A program made the translations under genes and the position numbers. The notes below the pieces were generated by a model. The model searched no databases. It saw only the letters and a program-made list of their open reading frames with translations, and was not told the DNA's origin. Of a stretch of 64,000 bases of DNA, positions 41,279-46,269 are shown one piece after another. Each line of letters begins with the position of its first letter. Within the stretch, counting starts at the first letter, position 1. Origin of the DNA: Escherichia coli phage NG_A1; the sequence record LC788705.1. One strand, 5' to 3'.

Positions 41279-41596
41279 ATGACTTTTCATATTTTGATTG
41301 ATGATGTGCGTAATCTTCATGGAATGGACATTATCATTCGAACCCCAGAAGCCGCTGTCGAGTTTCTGAATAAAACTGATACCACAGGCCACTTTGTTTA
41401 TATGGATAATGACTTGGCTGTAGATGGTATGGAAGGTTATCAAATTCTTCGTTTACTCTTAGAATTTGGGCAGAGACCAAAGAAAGTGGTACTAGTAACC
41501 TCGAATCCCGTAGCTAAGCAAACTATGCGTAATGATTTGCTTGACTTAGGGTATAAAGAAAATCCCAATCGTGTCGAATATGATTGGCAGGAGTAA
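41279..41596 (+). CDS. Small protein with receiver (CheY-like REC) domain-like pattern
   Basis: 105 aa; HILIDD...VYMDNDL.VDGMEGYQILRLL...VVLVTSN. Confidence 0.35.
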   Translation: MTFHILIDDVRNLHGMDIIIRTPEAAVEFLNKTDTTGHFVYMDNDLAVDGMEGYQILRLLLEFGQRPKKVVLVTSNPVAKQTMRNDLLDLGYKENPNRVEYDWQE

Positions 41597-41601
41597 AAAG
41601 A

Positions 41602-42051
41602 ATGAAGACAGCTTTGCTTTTAGTAGCTGCCCTTACCTTCAGCTTTAGTAGTCAGGCATCGCACGATGCAAAAGAAATAGATTGCATTGCTAAAAATATC
41701 TATTTCGAAAGTCGTGGTGAGGGCATAAAGGGAATGACGGCGATTGCACATGTTACTAAAAACCGTGTAAACTCCGGTAAATTCCCAGATTCCTACTGTA
41801 AAGTAGTATATCAGTCTAACCAGTTCTCTTGGGTATCTAAGAGACCAAAAGTTGATAAAACTGATGAGGCTTGGCAAACCGCCAAGAATTTAGCTAGAGT
41901 GATATACTACGTTGATTTACCACAAGATCCTACACATGGAGCTTTATACTTCCATAGTGGTAAAGATAAACCATACTGGACAAAGAAGTTTAAGAAAACA
42001 ACTAAGATTAAGGGACATACATTTTATAAGCCTGTTGTCACTAAAACTTAA
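41602..42051 (+). CDS. SleB-like cell-wall hydrolase with signal peptide
   Basis: Signal peptide MKTALLLVAALTFSFSSQA; IAKNIYFESRGE...AIAHVTKNRV...NQFSW; start at ATG 41602 after GGCAGGAG. Confidence 0.65.
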   Translation: MKTALLLVAALTFSFSSQASHDAKEIDCIAKNIYFESRGEGIKGMTAIAHVTKNRVNSGKFPDSYCKVVYQSNQFSWVSKRPKVDKTDEAWQTAKNLARVIYYVDLPQDPTHGALYFHSGKDKPYWTKKFKKTTKIKGHTFYKPVVTKT

Positions 42052-42059
42052 AAATTTAT

Positions 42060-42088
42060 TTGCTTAAATACTTAAACTTCTGTATAAT
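42060..42088 (+). promoter_or_regulatory. Early-type promoter
   Basis: TTGCTTaaatacttaaacttctgTATAAT. Confidence 0.65.
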
Positions 42089-42119
42089 ACTTTCATAAAT
42101 TAATGAGGGGAAGCGAAAT

Positions 42120-42290
42120 ATGAAATCAGTTGTAATTATTGGTGTTAATACTCGCGGTATTCGTACTACGAAAACTGTTAAAACTTCCAACGTTGCTGAG
42201 ATCACTACGAACCCTAAAAAGTTTGATTTCGCCAAAGTCTCAGCAGTTATGACAGAACAATCTTTTAACCAAGCGTTAGGAATGAAATAA
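42120..42290 (+). CDS. Small hypothetical protein (56 aa)
   Basis: ATG 42120 after GAGGGGAAG; below track cut-off. Confidence 0.3.
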   Translation: MKSVVIIGVNTRGIRTTKTVKTSNVAEITTNPKKFDFAKVSAVMTEQSFNQALGMK

Positions 42291-42733
42291 TGGAAGAGGA
42301 TATTTTAGATGTTTTGCGTAGAGCTTTGCAGGATTCTAAGTTTAATGGTTCTGATAAAGAAGTCGCTAAAAGCTATCAGACCATAATCGGGGATCTTCAG
42401 CGTATTAATAAAGATTTCATCACTTCTGAACAATTTGTGTCTTATCTCAAAGCTCAACTAAAAAGCATTAACCAGATGAAAGCTAAACTTCATGGTCAAG
42501 ATCTTGATAGTTATAGCTTGCAGTCCGCTCAGTATGAATACATTCTAAATAAGTGGTTGCAGGAGTATCTGCCCTCTCAGTTATCTGATACTGAGATTCG
42601 TAAATACTTTGCAGAATTAGTTAAGCTAAACCCTGGAATTACAAAAGGTATGCTGATGAAAGCGATCAAGGAAGAATTTCCTGGGCGTTATGATGGTGGT
42701 ACTGCTGCTCAGATTGCTGGCGAATTTAATTAA
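42290..42733 (+). CDS. GatB/YqeY-domain protein
   Basis: 147 aa; LQEYLPSQLSDTEI...GMLMKAIKEEFPGRYDGGTAAQIAGEF matches YqeY/GatB C-terminal domain pattern. Confidence 0.65.
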   Translation: MEEDILDVLRRALQDSKFNGSDKEVAKSYQTIIGDLQRINKDFITSEQFVSYLKAQLKSINQMKAKLHGQDLDSYSLQSAQYEYILNKWLQEYLPSQLSDTEIRKYFAELVKLNPGITKGMLMKAIKEEFPGRYDGGTAAQIAGEFN

Positions 42734-42741
42734 AAATTTAT

Positions 42742-42770
42742 TTGCTAAATGCTTATAAATTCTGTATAAT
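42742..42770 (+). promoter_or_regulatory. Early-type promoter at the head of the tRNA region
   Basis: TTGCTAaatgcttataaattctgTATAAT. Confidence 0.65.
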
Positions 42771-43007: not shown

Positions 43008-43080
43008 TGCCGTCCTAGTATAATTGGTATTATCAAGCCGTAACTGGTGGAAGATGTAGGTTCGAATCCTACGGTCGGTA
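43008..43080 (+). ncRNA. tRNA-like element (canonical T-arm, imperfect acceptor pairing)
   Basis: T-arm gtagg-ttcgaat-cctac at 43056-43072, D-loop-like aattggta; no 7-bp acceptor helix found. Confidence 0.25.
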
Positions 43081-43589
43081 AGAACTGGATAACTGATGCT
43101 TTTAATGTAAAAGCTTCCGAGGTTAGTTGCGCACTGCCTAAACCACGCGGTAGTTGGTTCCAGACTAACCAACCAGTCTGCTGAATAGTTTTATTACGAT
43201 TTAACTATGTCCAGGCTAAAGAAGAACTTTAGAAGGTATTCTAGGATAGTGAAGTTCTTTCTCCATATCGGAGTAGTTTTTCAAGCTATCCACAAAGTGG
43301 GAAATGCTGACATGAGAGATGTCACTAATGGTGCACAATAGCACAGGTAATTCGCGATAACTCCTGTTGAGTAGCAGCAAAAGGTGGGAAGTCATGACCC
43401 CAAGCCTAACCGAGTCCTCAATATACCGCAGGACATAACTACTAAGTCACCCTGACTTAAACTGGAAAATAATAGACGTTACTGTATTTTGTCTTGAAAT
43501 ACTTAATGAGTGAGACTTATGACTCTCCCGGTATCGTCTGTATTTTTAAGAGTTTTTACGAGAGTTCTTAAAAATACTTAAACGGGGTG

Positions 43590-43657
43590 TAGTCTAAGGG
43601 AGAGGCAGGAGTCTTCTAAATTCCTTTATGCAGGTTCGAATCCCTTGTCACGCACCA
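43590..43657 (+). ncRNA. tRNA-like element ending in CCA
   Basis: ggttcgaatcc T-loop at 43633-43643 and ...cgcaCCA 3' end; stems imperfect. Confidence 0.25.
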
Positions 43658-44581: not shown

Positions 44582-44659
44582 GTGGCTATATCATAATTGG
44601 TTAATGATCCTGATTGTGAATCAGGCCTATGTGGATTCGAATTCCACTAGCCACCCCCA
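44582..44659 (+). tRNA. tRNA-His (GUG)
   Basis: Acceptor gtggcta/tagccac, D-stem tcat/atga, anticodon loop ttGTGaa on stem cctga/tcagg, T-arm gtgga-ttcgaat-tccac, 3' CCCCA. Confidence 0.65.
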
Positions 44660-44684
44660 AATTAACTTAAATAGGAAATAAAAT

Positions 44685-44879
44685 ATGGCTGATTTCTGCA
44701 AACAATGCTCCATTGATATGTGGGGCAGAGATACTGGTGATCTTTCTGGGCTGATTACAGAAGCCGAAGTCAAAGAAGGTTATGGTGCAGTTGTGGTTTG
44801 TGAAGGATGCGGAGTCATTCGAGTAGATCATGAGGGTAAGCGCCTTGAAGAACCTGAGCCAGTTACCCTATTTCCCTAA
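44685..44879 (+). CDS. Small Cys-rich (zinc-ribbon-like) protein
   Basis: 64 aa; CKQC...CEGCG. Confidence 0.4.
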   Translation: MADFCKQCSIDMWGRDTGDLSGLITEAEVKEGYGAVVVCEGCGVIRVDHEGKRLEEPEPVTLFP

Positions 44880-44892
44880 AGTAAAGAATTAT

Positions 44893-44968
44893 TGGGATGT
44901 AGATCAATTGGCAGATCGTCGGCCTCTGACTCCGAAGGTTCCACGTTCGATCCGTGGCATCCCAGCCA
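44893..44968 (+). tRNA. tRNA-Gln (CUG)
   Basis: Acceptor tgggatg/catccca (U1:A72), D-stem gatc/gatc, anticodon loop ctCTGac, T-arm ccacg-ttcgatc-cgtgg, G+CCA. Confidence 0.7.
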
Positions 44969-44974
44969 AATACT

Positions 44975-45050
44975 TGGAGAGTAGTGTAACGGTTAGCACA
45001 ACGGCCTTTGACTCCGTTAATGGTAGGTTCGATTCCTCCTTCTCCAGCCA
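44975..45050 (+). tRNA. tRNA-Gln (UUG)
   Basis: Acceptor tggagag/ttctcca (U1:A72), anticodon loop ctTTGac, T-loop ttcgatt, G+CCA. Confidence 0.7.
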
Positions 45051-45057
45051 AATTAAT

Positions 45058-45132
45058 GCGTGATTAGTTCAGTGGCTAGAATAACTGGCTTCCAACCAGT
45101 AGACACGAGTTCGACTCTCGTATCCCGCACCA
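45058..45132 (+). tRNA. tRNA-Gly (UCC)
   Basis: Acceptor gcgtgat/atcccgc (one mismatch), anticodon stem actgg/ccagt with loop ctTCCaa, T-arm acgag-ttcgact-ctcgt, A+CCA. Confidence 0.7.
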
Positions 45133-45146
45133 AATAAGGAAACACT

Positions 45147-45398
45147 ATGCACGTTTTTGAGTTTCGTAATAAAAGTACTGATAAGCGAGTTATCATTATT
45201 GGAGAAACATATCGAGCATATGAACAAACTGATGGCTCTGTTATCTTGAATGATGAGAAAGGAGGTTTTAGCTTTTATCCAGAAGAACCTTATGAAGAGT
45301 TTCGAAAACAATTTAACCTAGACTGGAGAAAGCATTTAAACACTGTTGCTTCATCTGTAGTATTGCCAACTACCAGTACTGTACTCTCTAATGGCTGA
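45147..45398 (+). CDS. Hypothetical protein
   Basis: 83-aa ORF after AAGGAAA. Confidence 0.4.
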   Translation: MHVFEFRNKSTDKRVIIIGETYRAYEQTDGSVILNDEKGGFSFYPEEPYEEFRKQFNLDWRKHLNTVASSVVLPTTSTVLSNG

Positions 45399-45555
45399 CA
45401 ACCTAAAAGTAAAGATTGATAAACAAAAGAAACGTGTAGAAGTAGAGATTGGTGAAGAACGTGTTGCCTTTACTTTTGAATTTCTACAGCAAATGGCAAT
45501 GGCAGTTATGACTGATAAGTCTCCTGTTATTGAAAAAGAAATCCCGTTGAAATAA
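45391..45555 (+). CDS. Small hypothetical protein (54 aa)
   Basis: ATG 45391 overlapping previous ORF end; hairpin 45541-45565 follows. Confidence 0.3.
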   Translation: MADNLKVKIDKQKKRVEVEIGEERVAFTFEFLQQMAMAVMTDKSPVIEKEIPLK

Positions 45556-45565
45556 CGGGATCATC

Positions 45566-45640
45566 GCTCCTAAAGCATTGCTGGCGATGCAGTTGCCTTG
45601 TAAGCATCTGAACCGGGTTCGATTCCTGGTGGGAGCACCA
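45566..45640 (+). tRNA. tRNA-Thr (UGU)
   Basis: Acceptor gctccta/tgggagc, D-stem gcat/atgc, anticodon loop ctTGTaa, T-arm ccggg-ttcgatt-cctgg, A+CCA. Confidence 0.65.
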
Positions 45641-45655
45641 AATTTAAAAATTCAT

Positions 45656-45684
45656 TTGCCTTCTCTCTTATTTATTGTTATAAT
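45656..45684 (+). promoter_or_regulatory. Early-type promoter
   Basis: TTGCCTtctctcttatttattgtTATAAT. Confidence 0.6.
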
Positions 45685-45714
45685 ATTTATATAAATTAAT
45701 GAGAGGGAAACCAA

Positions 45715-46005
45715 ATGAAACGTTATCTTTCTATTGTATTCCAAACTGGTGGTCAAAGATATACCTATGAATTTCCATCTTCTTGGAAAATCAAAGAAGG
45801 TGATCAAGTAGTAGTGTTAACACCGCGTGAAGGGTATAAAGTAGTAATGGTTAAACAAGTATTCCCAAAAGATCATGAACCAGCTAAAGGCATTCGCTAT
45901 AAGATGATTCATGGTGTGGTCCGTCAAGTACCACGAACTGAGGTAGAAGTAGATAAGACTGGAGAAACTAAATTCCATTATACTTCTTACTTAGATAGTG
46001 TGTGA
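45715..46005 (+). CDS. Hypothetical protein
   Basis: 96-aa ORF with GAGAGGG RBS. Confidence 0.5.
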   Translation: MKRYLSIVFQTGGQRYTYEFPSSWKIKEGDQVVVLTPREGYKVVMVKQVFPKDHEPAKGIRYKMIHGVVRQVPRTEVEVDKTGETKFHYTSYLDSV

Positions 46006-46020
46006 TGTAAATATTCTAAT

Positions 46021-46097
46021 ACTTCGGTAGCTTAGCGATCTAAAGCACCCGGCTGATAACCGAGAGATCGGGGGTTTAAATCCCTCCCGGAGTACCA
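46021..46097 (+). tRNA. tRNA-Ile (GAU)
   Basis: Acceptor acttcgg/ccggagt, D-stem gctt/aagc, anticodon loop ctGATaa, T-arm ggggg-tttaaat-ccctc, A+CCA. Confidence 0.6.
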
Positions 46098-46193
46098 AAT
46101 TTAGGAATTAAGACTATGCGTCCAGGAAAGTTTAAAAAAGCTAATTGGTCTAAAGAGTATAAAGAATACTTACTTAGTCTAGTAAAACATAAC

Positions 46194-46269
46194 AGTTAGT
46201 TGGCAGAGTGGTTATGCACCTCCTTCATACGGAGCGACTACAGTGGTTCAAATCCACTACTAACTACCA
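46194..46269 (+). tRNA. tRNA-Met (CAU); could be initiator or a lysidine-modified Ile isoacceptor
   Basis: Exact acceptor agttagt/actaact, anticodon loop ttCATac, T-arm agtgg-ttcaaat-ccact, A+CCA. Confidence 0.6.

What the first reader, a model, noticed from the sequence alone, without database searches (positions are those of the whole stretch)
42290..42733. GatB/YqeY-domain protein encoded immediately upstream of the tRNA gene cluster
The C-terminal half matches the YqeY/GatB-C domain (EYLPSQLSDTEI...GMLMKAIKEEFPGRYDGGTAAQIAGEF), a fold that binds tRNA in the GatCAB amidotransferase. Its position just before the phage tRNA array suggests a role in tRNA handling, for example protecting or stabilising phage tRNAs or countering host anticodon nucleases.
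Basis: partly seen in the sequence, partly recalled or inferred. Interest (0 to 1): 0.5.

Follow-up and report, generated by a model that had tools for sequence, protein, structure and literature searches.

The report
Phage YqeY-like protein beside tRNA genes
The ORF is a real, already-annotated T5-family phage gene for a small non-catalytic YqeY-family protein that repeatedly sits in or beside tRNA gene arrays in unrelated large phages, which points to an untested helper role with tRNAs; it is dispensable in the laboratory.

Summary
ORF 42290..42733 (+), 147 aa, lies in a T5-like phage (Tequintavirus, 98.6% identical to known phages). It is the orthologue of T5 gene T5.081 (PHROG 1460, E=1.8e-46). 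The whole protein, not only its C-terminal half, is a stand-alone YqeY homologue:
- profile-profile comparison with cellular YqeY gives 97% probability over 135 columns;

It lacks the GatB catalytic domain, so the database name "tRNA amidotransferase" is a misnomer.

The tRNA-handling idea is supported only by association. In 45 phage lineages carrying this phage-type YqeY (signature G-x-Y-D-G-K), 15 have a tRNA within 2 kb and 8 are embedded in arrays. The figure is 0 of 17 for thymidylate-synthase-anchored control loci (Fisher p=0.006). RNA ligases and ArfB-like genes recur nearby.

Against a vital role, the viable T5 st0 mutant has lost the C-terminal 90 codons. The protein is mildly acidic. 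A YqeY-fold protein also serves as a complex I subunit. Nothing supports the anticodon-nuclease idea specifically. A 2017 paper already noted the tRNA adjacency and speculated on tRNA charging. This is an ordinary, known feature of unknown function.

The parts
42290..42733 (+). Gene for a 147-aa stand-alone YqeY-family protein. It is the orthologue of T5 T5.081/T5p079 and a member of PHROG 1460. It has an N-terminal helical domain (about residues 1-93) and a C-terminal three-helix tail (about 94-147) carrying the EYLPSQLS and G-R-Y-D-G motifs.
42120..42290 (+). 56-aa ORF of family DUF7616 (PHROG 5077). Its stop codon overlaps the YqeY start codon (TAATG), so the two genes form one bicistronic unit, as do T5.082 and T5.081 in T5.
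   Evidence: the same 171-nt ORF precedes the YqeY-like gene in Pantoea phage AAS21
42060..42088 (+). Promoter-like site (TTGCTT, 17 nt, TATAAT, preceded by AAAAATTTAT) upstream of the DUF7616/YqeY pair. By position it corresponds to the annotated T5 promoter P-D/E 33.
   Evidence: read from the sequence; T5 annotation; the scan did not list it because the -35 hexamer matches only 3 of 6
42742..42770 (+). Promoter-like site (TTGCTA, 17 nt, TATAAT) 9 bp after the stop codon, in a block nearly identical to the upstream one. It corresponds to T5 promoter P16-17, which drives RNAX and tRNA-Arg. No terminator-like site separates the gene from the tRNA region.
43009..43080 (+). tRNA-like element. 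The acceptor, D and T arms fit the tRNA model but the anticodon arm does not. It lies inside the region homologous to the T5 stable RNA 'RNAX'.
   Evidence: Rfam 35.5 bits, gathering score 29; not called by ARAGORN; annotated tRNA-OTHER in related phages
43582..43657 (+). First ARAGORN tRNA call (Arg, TCT). Here it is a hybrid: the 5' part comes from tRNA-Arg and the 3' part from tRNA-Leu(TAG), joined in the shared GGTTCGAATCC of the T arm. Probably not functional.
   Evidence: (Rfam only 21.2 bits)
44582..46269 (+). Remaining tRNA array (His, Gln x2, Gly, Thr, Ile, Met) interspersed with small ORFs, on the same strand as the YqeY gene.

Best explanation
The gene encodes a small, non-catalytic, all-helical YqeY-family protein. 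YqeY is the free-standing relative of the helical-plus-tail module that GatB, GatE and Deinococcus GlnRS use to hold the D-loop/elbow region of tRNA. It is transcribed from its own early-type promoter together with a 56-aa DUF7616 protein, at the entrance of the phage tRNA region. Shown here: its identity, its fold, the absence of any amidotransferase catalytic domain, its conservation across Demerecviridae, a phage-specific signature (G-x-Y-D-G-K-x-A-S where cellular YqeY has G-x-A-D-G or G-Q-M-D-F), and recurrent embedding in tRNA arrays of unrelated large phages. Inferred: it acts as an accessory tRNA-elbow-binding adaptor that helps phage-encoded tRNAs be matured, charged or used, probably by working with a partner enzyme or the ribosome rather than alone. 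Its E. coli host is said to lack a yqeY gene of its own (PMC13374519). It improves fitness in nature but is dispensable in laboratory culture.
For: Identity and fold. No catalytic domain: all 147 aa align to YqeY, whereas the S. aureus GatB cradle domain is residues 1-294 (PMC2811023). Homologous modules bind tRNA: the GatB tail is essential for tRNA-Gln binding and is docked on the D-loop and variable loop, and the YqeY domain of D. radiodurans GlnRS enhances tRNA-Gln affinity. Synteny within the family: T5, Baret, Pantoea phage AAS21, and divergent T5-like contigs L069-L072 whose arrays of 13-19 tRNAs start 0.65-2 kb downstream. Beyond the family: of 45 lineages, 15 have a tRNA within 2 kb, 8 have tRNAs on both sides within 5 kb, and 16 have at least 7 tRNAs within +-10 kb. 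ThyA-anchored controls give 0 of 17 within 2 kb and at most 5 tRNAs; Fisher p=0.006. RNA ligases (6 lineages) and RF-1/ArfB-like genes (3 lineages) lie within 4 kb. A cREC_REC RNA-repair-associated domain lies two genes upstream in the window. E. coli is stated to lack yqeY (PMC13374519). The family is large: 837 50%-identity clusters at E<=1e-3, nearly all 130-155 aa.
Against: No binding or functional data exist for any phage YqeY; literature searches found none. The function of free cellular YqeY is still unknown. The free YqeY domain could not act in trans on truncated GlnRS. The protein is mildly acidic, pI 5.5, with no basic excess, and it lacks the Lys-rich KxGKxK motif and extra helix of the GatB tail. 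The YqeY fold also serves as a protein bridge in Pichia complex I, so the fold does not imply tRNA binding. T5 st0 is a viable mutant that keeps only the first 54 codons. 19 of 45 lineages have no tRNA within 10 kb, and in phiCbK the nearest tRNA is about 17 kb away. The control family is not matched for phage type. tRNA regions are plastic accessory regions, which could by itself enrich for small accessory genes.
Confidence: 0.45

Rival explanations
1. It is a general translation or ribosome cofactor. The phage supplies a YqeY function that its enterobacterial host lacks, acting on ribosomes or initiation as suspected for cellular YqeY co-transcribed with bS21, with no special relation to phage tRNAs.
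For: Cellular yqeY lies immediately downstream of rpsU in 9 of 80 sampled bacterial loci, and this link is noted in PMC1865053 and PMC13374519. E. coli is stated to lack yqeY. RF-1/ArfB-like genes occur near phage YqeY in 3 lineages.
Against: No bS21 homologue lies within +-10 kb of any of the phage YqeY loci or anywhere in the window. The phage clade has its own signature (YDGK), which suggests a diverged specificity. The enrichment next to tRNA arrays is not explained.
Confidence: 0.2
2. It is a protein-protein adaptor or other accessory protein unrelated to tRNA. It sits near tRNAs only because tRNA regions are the plastic, deletable cargo regions where non-essential genes accumulate.
For: The T5 tRNA region is deletable and the gene is destroyed in viable T5 st0. 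The window itself carries a 7.2-kb deletion in this region. The YqeY/Aim41 fold is a structural bridge subunit of complex I. The protein is acidic. No neighbouring gene is constant across lineages. 19 of 45 lineages have no nearby tRNA.
Against: The gene is retained at the same place across Demerecviridae down to about 26-38% identity, while neighbouring small ORFs vary. It is embedded inside arrays in 8 unrelated lineages. The residues best conserved between the phage and cellular clades lie in the tail that contacts tRNA in GatB.
Confidence: 0.2
3. It is an anti-defence factor. It shields phage or host tRNAs from host tRNA-targeting nucleases (PrrC/RloC-type anticodon nucleases, PARIS, retron-associated nucleases), or acts as a decoy for them.
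For: Only circumstantial. It is an early gene at the tRNA array. It is dispensable on laboratory K-12-type hosts, as anti-defence genes typically are. RNA ligase and 2H/Acb1-like repair or anti-defence genes lie nearby in some lineages. A cREC_REC domain gene lies nearby.
Against: The homologous tail domain is docked on the D-loop and variable loop of tRNA, not the anticodon loop that these nucleases cut. No experimental or literature support was found.
Confidence: 0.1
4. It is a genuine tRNA-dependent amidotransferase, as many database records name it.
For: The name 'tRNA amidotransferase' appears in PHROG 1460 and in RefSeq records.
Against: The 147 residues align end to end with non-catalytic YqeY. 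There is no GatB cradle domain (residues 1-294 in S. aureus GatB). No GatA or GatC gene is annotated in the surrounding 14 kb of related phages. From general knowledge, E. coli makes Gln-tRNA and Asn-tRNA directly and has no GatCAB.
Confidence: 0.01

Closest known systems
Stand-alone bacterial YqeY (B. subtilis 1NG6; C. jejuni 8XJE; V. parahaemolyticus 8XJG; Pfam PF09424)
   Different: Only 14-20% identical. The score is just below the Pfam gathering cut-off. It carries the phage-clade signature G-x-Y-D-G-K-x-A-S in place of G-[RK]-A-D-G or G-Q-M-D-F. It sits in tRNA arrays rather than next to rpsU.
GatB (and GatE) helical plus tail domains of tRNA-dependent amidotransferases
   Same: Homologous module. 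The tail is a three-helix bundle with a conserved pocket, formed by the helix-loop-helix that carries the G-x-A-x-P / G-x-x-D-G motif, which is modelled onto the tRNA D-loop (PMC2811023).
C-terminal YqeY domain of Deinococcus radiodurans GlnRS
   Same: A YqeY module with a demonstrated effect on tRNA affinity (PMC1865053).
   Different: There it is fused to the synthetase and works only in cis. The phage protein is free-standing.
T5 gene T5.081 (T5p079) and other members of PHROG 1460; Pseudomonas phage pf16 gp65
   Same: [quoted passage not shown]
   Different: Nothing substantive; none of them has been characterised.
Aim41 / GatB-YqeY superfamily bridge subunit of Pichia pastoris complex I
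   Different: It acts as a protein-protein bridge in a respiratory complex (PMC12487887), which shows that the fold is not restricted to tRNA binding.

Membership tests
Stand-alone YqeY family (Pfam PF09424) | Match to the family profile at or above the curated threshold | tested here: inconclusive
   26.2 bits against a cut-off of 27, E=9.4e-6, C-terminal part only. Close homologues (P0001, P0009, P0013 and others) carry a precomputed PF09424 hit. 36 of 42 more distant relatives reached by the family profile match PF09424.
Stand-alone YqeY family (Pfam PF09424) | Full-length homology: a protein of about 145 aa with an N-terminal helical domain and a C-terminal helical tail | tested here: met
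Stand-alone YqeY family (Pfam PF09424) | Conserved sequence motifs YLPxQL and G-x-A-D-G in the tail | tested here: inconclusive
   EYLPSQLS is present. The second motif is G-R-Y-D-G, with Tyr where cellular proteins have Ala, Met, Leu or Ile. The Tyr is invariant in the phage clade.
GatB subunit of GatCAB (tRNA-dependent amidotransferase) | Catalytic cradle domain (residues 1-294 in S. aureus GatB) | tested here: not met
   The protein has 147 aa, all accounted for by the YqeY alignment. Domain boundaries are from PMC2811023.
GatB subunit of GatCAB (tRNA-dependent amidotransferase) | Lys-rich KxGKxK motif and an extra helix in the tail domain | tested here: not met
   The tail is predicted as three helices (100-113, 119-129, 136-145) joined by NPGITKG, with no KxGKxK. 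The feature is described.
GatB subunit of GatCAB (tRNA-dependent amidotransferase) | Partner subunits GatA and GatC encoded by the phage or host | not tested
   None is annotated in the 14-kb neighbourhoods of related phages. The whole window was not scanned for them. That E. coli lacks GatCAB is general knowledge, not tested here.
tRNA-binding YqeY/GatB tail modules (functional class) | Physical binding to the tRNA D-loop/elbow | not testable with these tools
   Only indirect evidence: genomic association with tRNA arrays.
PHROG 1460 ('tRNA amidotransferase') | Full-length profile match | tested here: met
   E=1.8e-46, residues 4-146 against profile positions 2-139 of 140. The family name is a misnomer.

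The most novel reading that the evidence does not exclude
The phage-type YqeY clade (signature G-x-Y-D-G-K) could be a dedicated virus-encoded tRNA escort. On this reading it recognises the elbow of phage-encoded tRNAs and channels them to processing, charging or the ribosome, or keeps them away from host tRNA-targeting immunity. That would be the first assigned function for any free-standing YqeY protein and a new layer of phage control over translation.
Probability: 0.15. Interest if true: 0.65.

Novelty: already known. Interest (0 to 1): 0.3.

Why it matters
YqeY is a widespread protein. It has had a crystal structure since 2003 and still has no known function. Large phages carry their own diverged version, often inside their tRNA gene arrays. 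T5 is a tractable model in which the gene is non-essential and the E. coli host is said to lack a yqeY homologue (PMC13374519). If the phage protein binds tRNAs, T5-like phages would give a clean genetic system for finding out what YqeY proteins do and how phages manage their own tRNAs. As it stands, the finding is a correct re-discovery of an annotated gene. The main practical point is that the common label "tRNA amidotransferase", and the label "recombination related exonuclease" used in some records, are wrong.

Tried and rejected
- NCBIfam gave no hit.
- The search for related loci with the broad alignment A2 on viral contigs, and with A3 on genome contigs, failed for lack of a conserved stretch. 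Narrower alignments were used instead.
- Literature searches for 'tRNA amidotransferase' plus 'T5-like', for 'bacteriophage T5' plus 'RNAX', and for T5.081/T5p079/T5.082 returned nothing.
- A link to ribosomal protein bS21, as in bacteria, was tested and rejected. There is no bS21 homologue within +-10 kb of the phage loci or in the window.
- A search for a constant neighbouring gene found none. Only lineage-restricted recurrences appeared: RNA ligases, RF-1 domain, NadR-like, 2H/Acb1-like, SleB-like hydrolase.
- No particular tRNA isoacceptor consistently flanks the gene.
- The 'true amidotransferase' reading was rejected on architecture.
- The nearest-tRNA distance conditional on having an array inside the 20-kb window was considered as a test and dropped. 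Extended arrays make short distances likely under the null, so a comparison with ThyA-anchored loci was used. That control is not matched for phage type.

Full report
**What is there**

The window is a T5-like phage of the genus Tequintavirus (Demerecviridae). The 2.5 kb around the finding is 98.1-98.6% identical to NBEco001, Baret, mar004NP2, SPLA5b and many other phages.

ORF 42290..42733 (+) codes for 147 aa and contains both quoted peptides. It is a real gene:
- PHROG 1460 matches at E=1.8e-46 over the full length.
- tblastn finds it in 453 phage records, from 98.6% down to about 44% identity.
- A protein search returns 51 clusters.

GenBank and RefSeq records name it variously 'tRNA amidotransferase', 'YqeY domain-containing protein', 'recombination related exonuclease' or 'hypothetical protein'. 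In T5 the orthologue is T5.081 (NC_005859 41617..42051), also called T5p079.

**What kind of protein it is**

Pfam YqeY (PF09424) matches residues 90-142 at E=9.4e-6. The score is 26.2 bits, against a gathering cut-off of 27. The homology nevertheless runs the whole length of the protein:
- A profile of 31 T5-like homologues (A1) aligns B. subtilis YqeY (1NG6) over 9-138 against 7-141.
- hhalign of A1 against 20 cellular YqeY proteins taken from bacterial genomes gives 97.2% probability, E=3.4e-11, 135 columns.
- A broader phage clade (A3) gives 99.9% and E=1.8e-31.
- The AlphaFold2 model is confident (pLDDT 92) and has seven helices.
- Its only strong Foldseek matches are the YqeY crystal structures 8XJE, 1NG6 and 8XJG.

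An exhaustive profile search finds 837 50%-identity clusters at E<=1e-3. Nearly all are 130-155 aa and align end to end, and 36 of 42 sampled members hit Pfam YqeY.

So the protein is a stand-alone YqeY. YqeY is the free relative of the helical-plus-tail module of GatB (PMC2811023). It has no GatB cradle (catalytic) domain, no Lys-rich motif and no extra tail helix. 'tRNA amidotransferase' is therefore a misnomer.

The phage clade carries its own signature. At the motif that is G-[RK]-A-D-G or G-Q-M-D-F in 79 of 80 cellular loci, every phage sequence examined has G-x-Y-D-G-K-x-A-S. By alignment, the Tyr falls at the position of Ala459 in the conserved pocket of the S. aureus GatB tail, which is modelled onto the tRNA D-loop. 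That positional equivalence is my inference.

**Local anatomy**

- A promoter-like site (TTGCTT, 17 nt, TATAAT; 42060-42088) precedes a 56-aa DUF7616 ORF (42120..42290).
- The stop codon of that ORF overlaps the YqeY start codon as TAATG.
- Nine bases after the YqeY stop codon, a near-copy of the same promoter block (42742-42770) opens the tRNA region.
- T5 annotates these two sites as promoters P-D/E 33 and P16-17. The second drives the 719-nt stable 'RNAX' and tRNA-Arg.
- No terminator-like site lies between the gene and the tRNAs.
- A tRNA-like element follows at 43009..43080, and then eight ARAGORN tRNA calls between 43582 and 46269, all on the + strand.
- Upstream lie a SleB-like hydrolase (41584..42051) and a cREC_REC domain protein (41279..41596).

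**Is the position meaningful?**

Within Demerecviridae the arrangement is conserved. It is the same in T5, Baret and Pantoea phage AAS21. Two divergent T5-like lineages from IMG/VR (L069-L072) have 13-19 tRNAs beginning 0.65-2 kb downstream.

Outside the family, tblastn with a distant member finds YqeY-like genes in large phages of Ralstonia, Pseudomonas, Vibrio, Aeromonas, Caulobacter, Yersinia and Sinorhizobium.

A scan of IMG/VR gave 66 loci. After dereplication at 70% identity these form 45 lineages:

| Nearest tRNA to the YqeY-like gene | Lineages (of 45) |
|---|---|
| within 500 bp | 7 |
| within 2 kb | 15 |
| within 10 kb | 26 |
| tRNAs on both sides within 5 kb | 8 |
| at least 7 tRNAs within +-10 kb | 16 |

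Almost all of these tRNAs are on the same strand as the gene.

The control was loci anchored on thymidylate synthase from the same collection:
- 0 of 17 lineages have a tRNA within 2 kb (0 of 35 when clustered at 85% identity).
- 5 of 17 have one within 10 kb.
- No control locus has more than 5 tRNAs.
- Fisher p=0.006, or 7e-5 against the 85% clustering.

Within 4 kb of the phage YqeY genes, some families recur in subsets of lineages. These are two RNA-ligase families (6 lineages), RF-1/ArfB-like proteins (3), NadR-like enzymes (5) and 2H/Acb1-like phosphoesterases (3). No partner is constant.

The association is real but facultative. 19 of 45 lineages have no tRNA within 10 kb, and in phiCbK the nearest tRNA is about 17 kb away.

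Three caveats apply:
- The sampling was restricted to loci matching the motif.
- The control is not matched for phage type.
- tRNA regions are plastic cargo regions, which could enrich for accessory genes on their own.

**What is known that bears on function**

- The GatB tail is essential for tRNA-Gln binding and is docked on the D-loop and variable loop.
- The YqeY domain fused to D. radiodurans GlnRS raises tRNA-Gln affinity, but only in cis.
- The function of free YqeY was still called poorly understood in 2026, and E. coli is stated to lack the gene.
- In bacteria yqeY often follows rpsU. I saw this in 9 of 80 loci. No bS21 gene accompanies the phage genes.
- A YqeY-superfamily protein is a structural bridge in Pichia complex I, so the fold does not prove tRNA binding.
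- The window protein is mildly acidic, pI 5.5.
- T5 st0 is a viable deletion mutant. Its 8.2-kb deletion starts inside T5p079 and leaves only 54 codons, and the record annotates the gene as non-functional. The gene is therefore dispensable in the laboratory.
- The tRNA adjacency and a speculated role in tRNA charging were already noted for Pseudomonas phage pf16 gp65 (PMC5587285).

**Most likely mechanism**

Identity is close to certain (about 0.95). The functional reading is inferred (about 0.45). On that reading the protein is a non-catalytic adaptor that binds the tRNA elbow. It is made early together with the phage tRNAs and assists their maturation, charging or use, probably through a partner protein. 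It gives a fitness benefit in nature but is not essential.

The rivals are:
- a general translation or ribosome cofactor (0.2);
- a protein adaptor unrelated to tRNA whose location reflects the plastic region (0.2);
- an anti-defence factor against tRNA nucleases (0.1);
- a true amidotransferase (rejected).

**Verdict**

The feature is an already-annotated core gene of T5-like phages. This analysis adds four things:
- the demonstration that the usual name is wrong;
- the phage-specific YDGK signature;
- a first rough quantification of the association with tRNA arrays across unrelated phages;
- the link to the st0 deletion.

Interest is low to moderate.

Noticed in passing
window 43582..43657 (junction in GGTTCGAATCC at about 43634-43644): The 'tRNA-Arg(TCT)' is a chimera. 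Its 5' part is tRNA-Arg and its 3' part, with the downstream flank, is tRNA-Leu(TAG). Relative to the closest relative mar004NP2 (25180 joined to 32374), about 7.2 kb is missing: 12 tRNA genes, the band-7 lipoprotein gene and a primase-like gene. The loss apparently arose by recombination within the 11-nt T-arm sequence shared by the two tRNAs. None of the 505 matching phage records covers 80% of the 4.2-kb query spanning this junction in one place. Rfam scores the hybrid at only 21.2 bits (gathering score 29), so it is probably non-functional. This is a deletion analogous to the T5 st mutants.
   Followed up: yes
window 43009..43080 (+): A tRNA-like element with good acceptor, D and T arms but no recognisable anticodon arm (Rfam 35.5 bits; not called by ARAGORN). 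It is conserved as 'tRNA-OTHER' directly after the YqeY gene in Baret and in Pantoea phage AAS21. It lies inside the region homologous to the 719-nt T5 stable RNA 'RNAX', whose function is unknown.
   Followed up: partly
window 41279..41596 (+): A 105-aa protein with a cREC_REC domain (PF20274, cyclic-phosphate processing receiver domain, E=1.4e-14; PHROG 1479). From my own knowledge, not tested here, this domain is associated with RNA-repair systems. It lies two genes upstream of the YqeY gene.
   Followed up: no
window 42120..42290 (+): A 56-aa DUF7616 protein (PHROG 5077) that is translationally coupled to the YqeY gene (TAATG overlap). The pair is conserved in T5 (T5.082/T5.081) and in Pantoea phage AAS21. 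It is absent from the more divergent T5-like contigs L069 and L071, where the SleB-like hydrolase directly precedes the YqeY gene.
   Followed up: partly
window 41584..42051 (+): A SleB-like cell-wall hydrolase (PF07486, E=2.4e-25) that many records annotate as 'endolysin'. It has a signal-like N-terminus and is conserved next to the YqeY gene in T5-like phages and in one unrelated contig, L052.
   Followed up: no
window 42051-42090 and 42735-42770: Two nearly identical promoter blocks (AAAAATTTATTTGCT[T/A]AAT...CTGTATAAT) bracket the DUF7616/YqeY unit. They correspond to the annotated T5 promoters P-D/E 33 and P16-17.
   Followed up: partly
loci L153-L232 (bacterial genomes): In Kitasatospora, Streptomyces and related Actinobacteria, the cellular yqeY gene lies 1.1-2.2 kb from a tRNA gene. 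In Firmicutes and some Betaproteobacteria it lies 21-305 bp downstream of rpsU.
   Followed up: no
locus L006 (Caulobacter phage phiCbK) and T5 / locus L001: A band-7/SPFH lipoprotein gene occurs beside tRNA-Arg in T5-like phages. One also occurs in phiCbK, in the same 40-kb region as its YqeY-like gene, an RtcB-like gene and a peptidyl-tRNA hydrolase gene.
   Followed up: no
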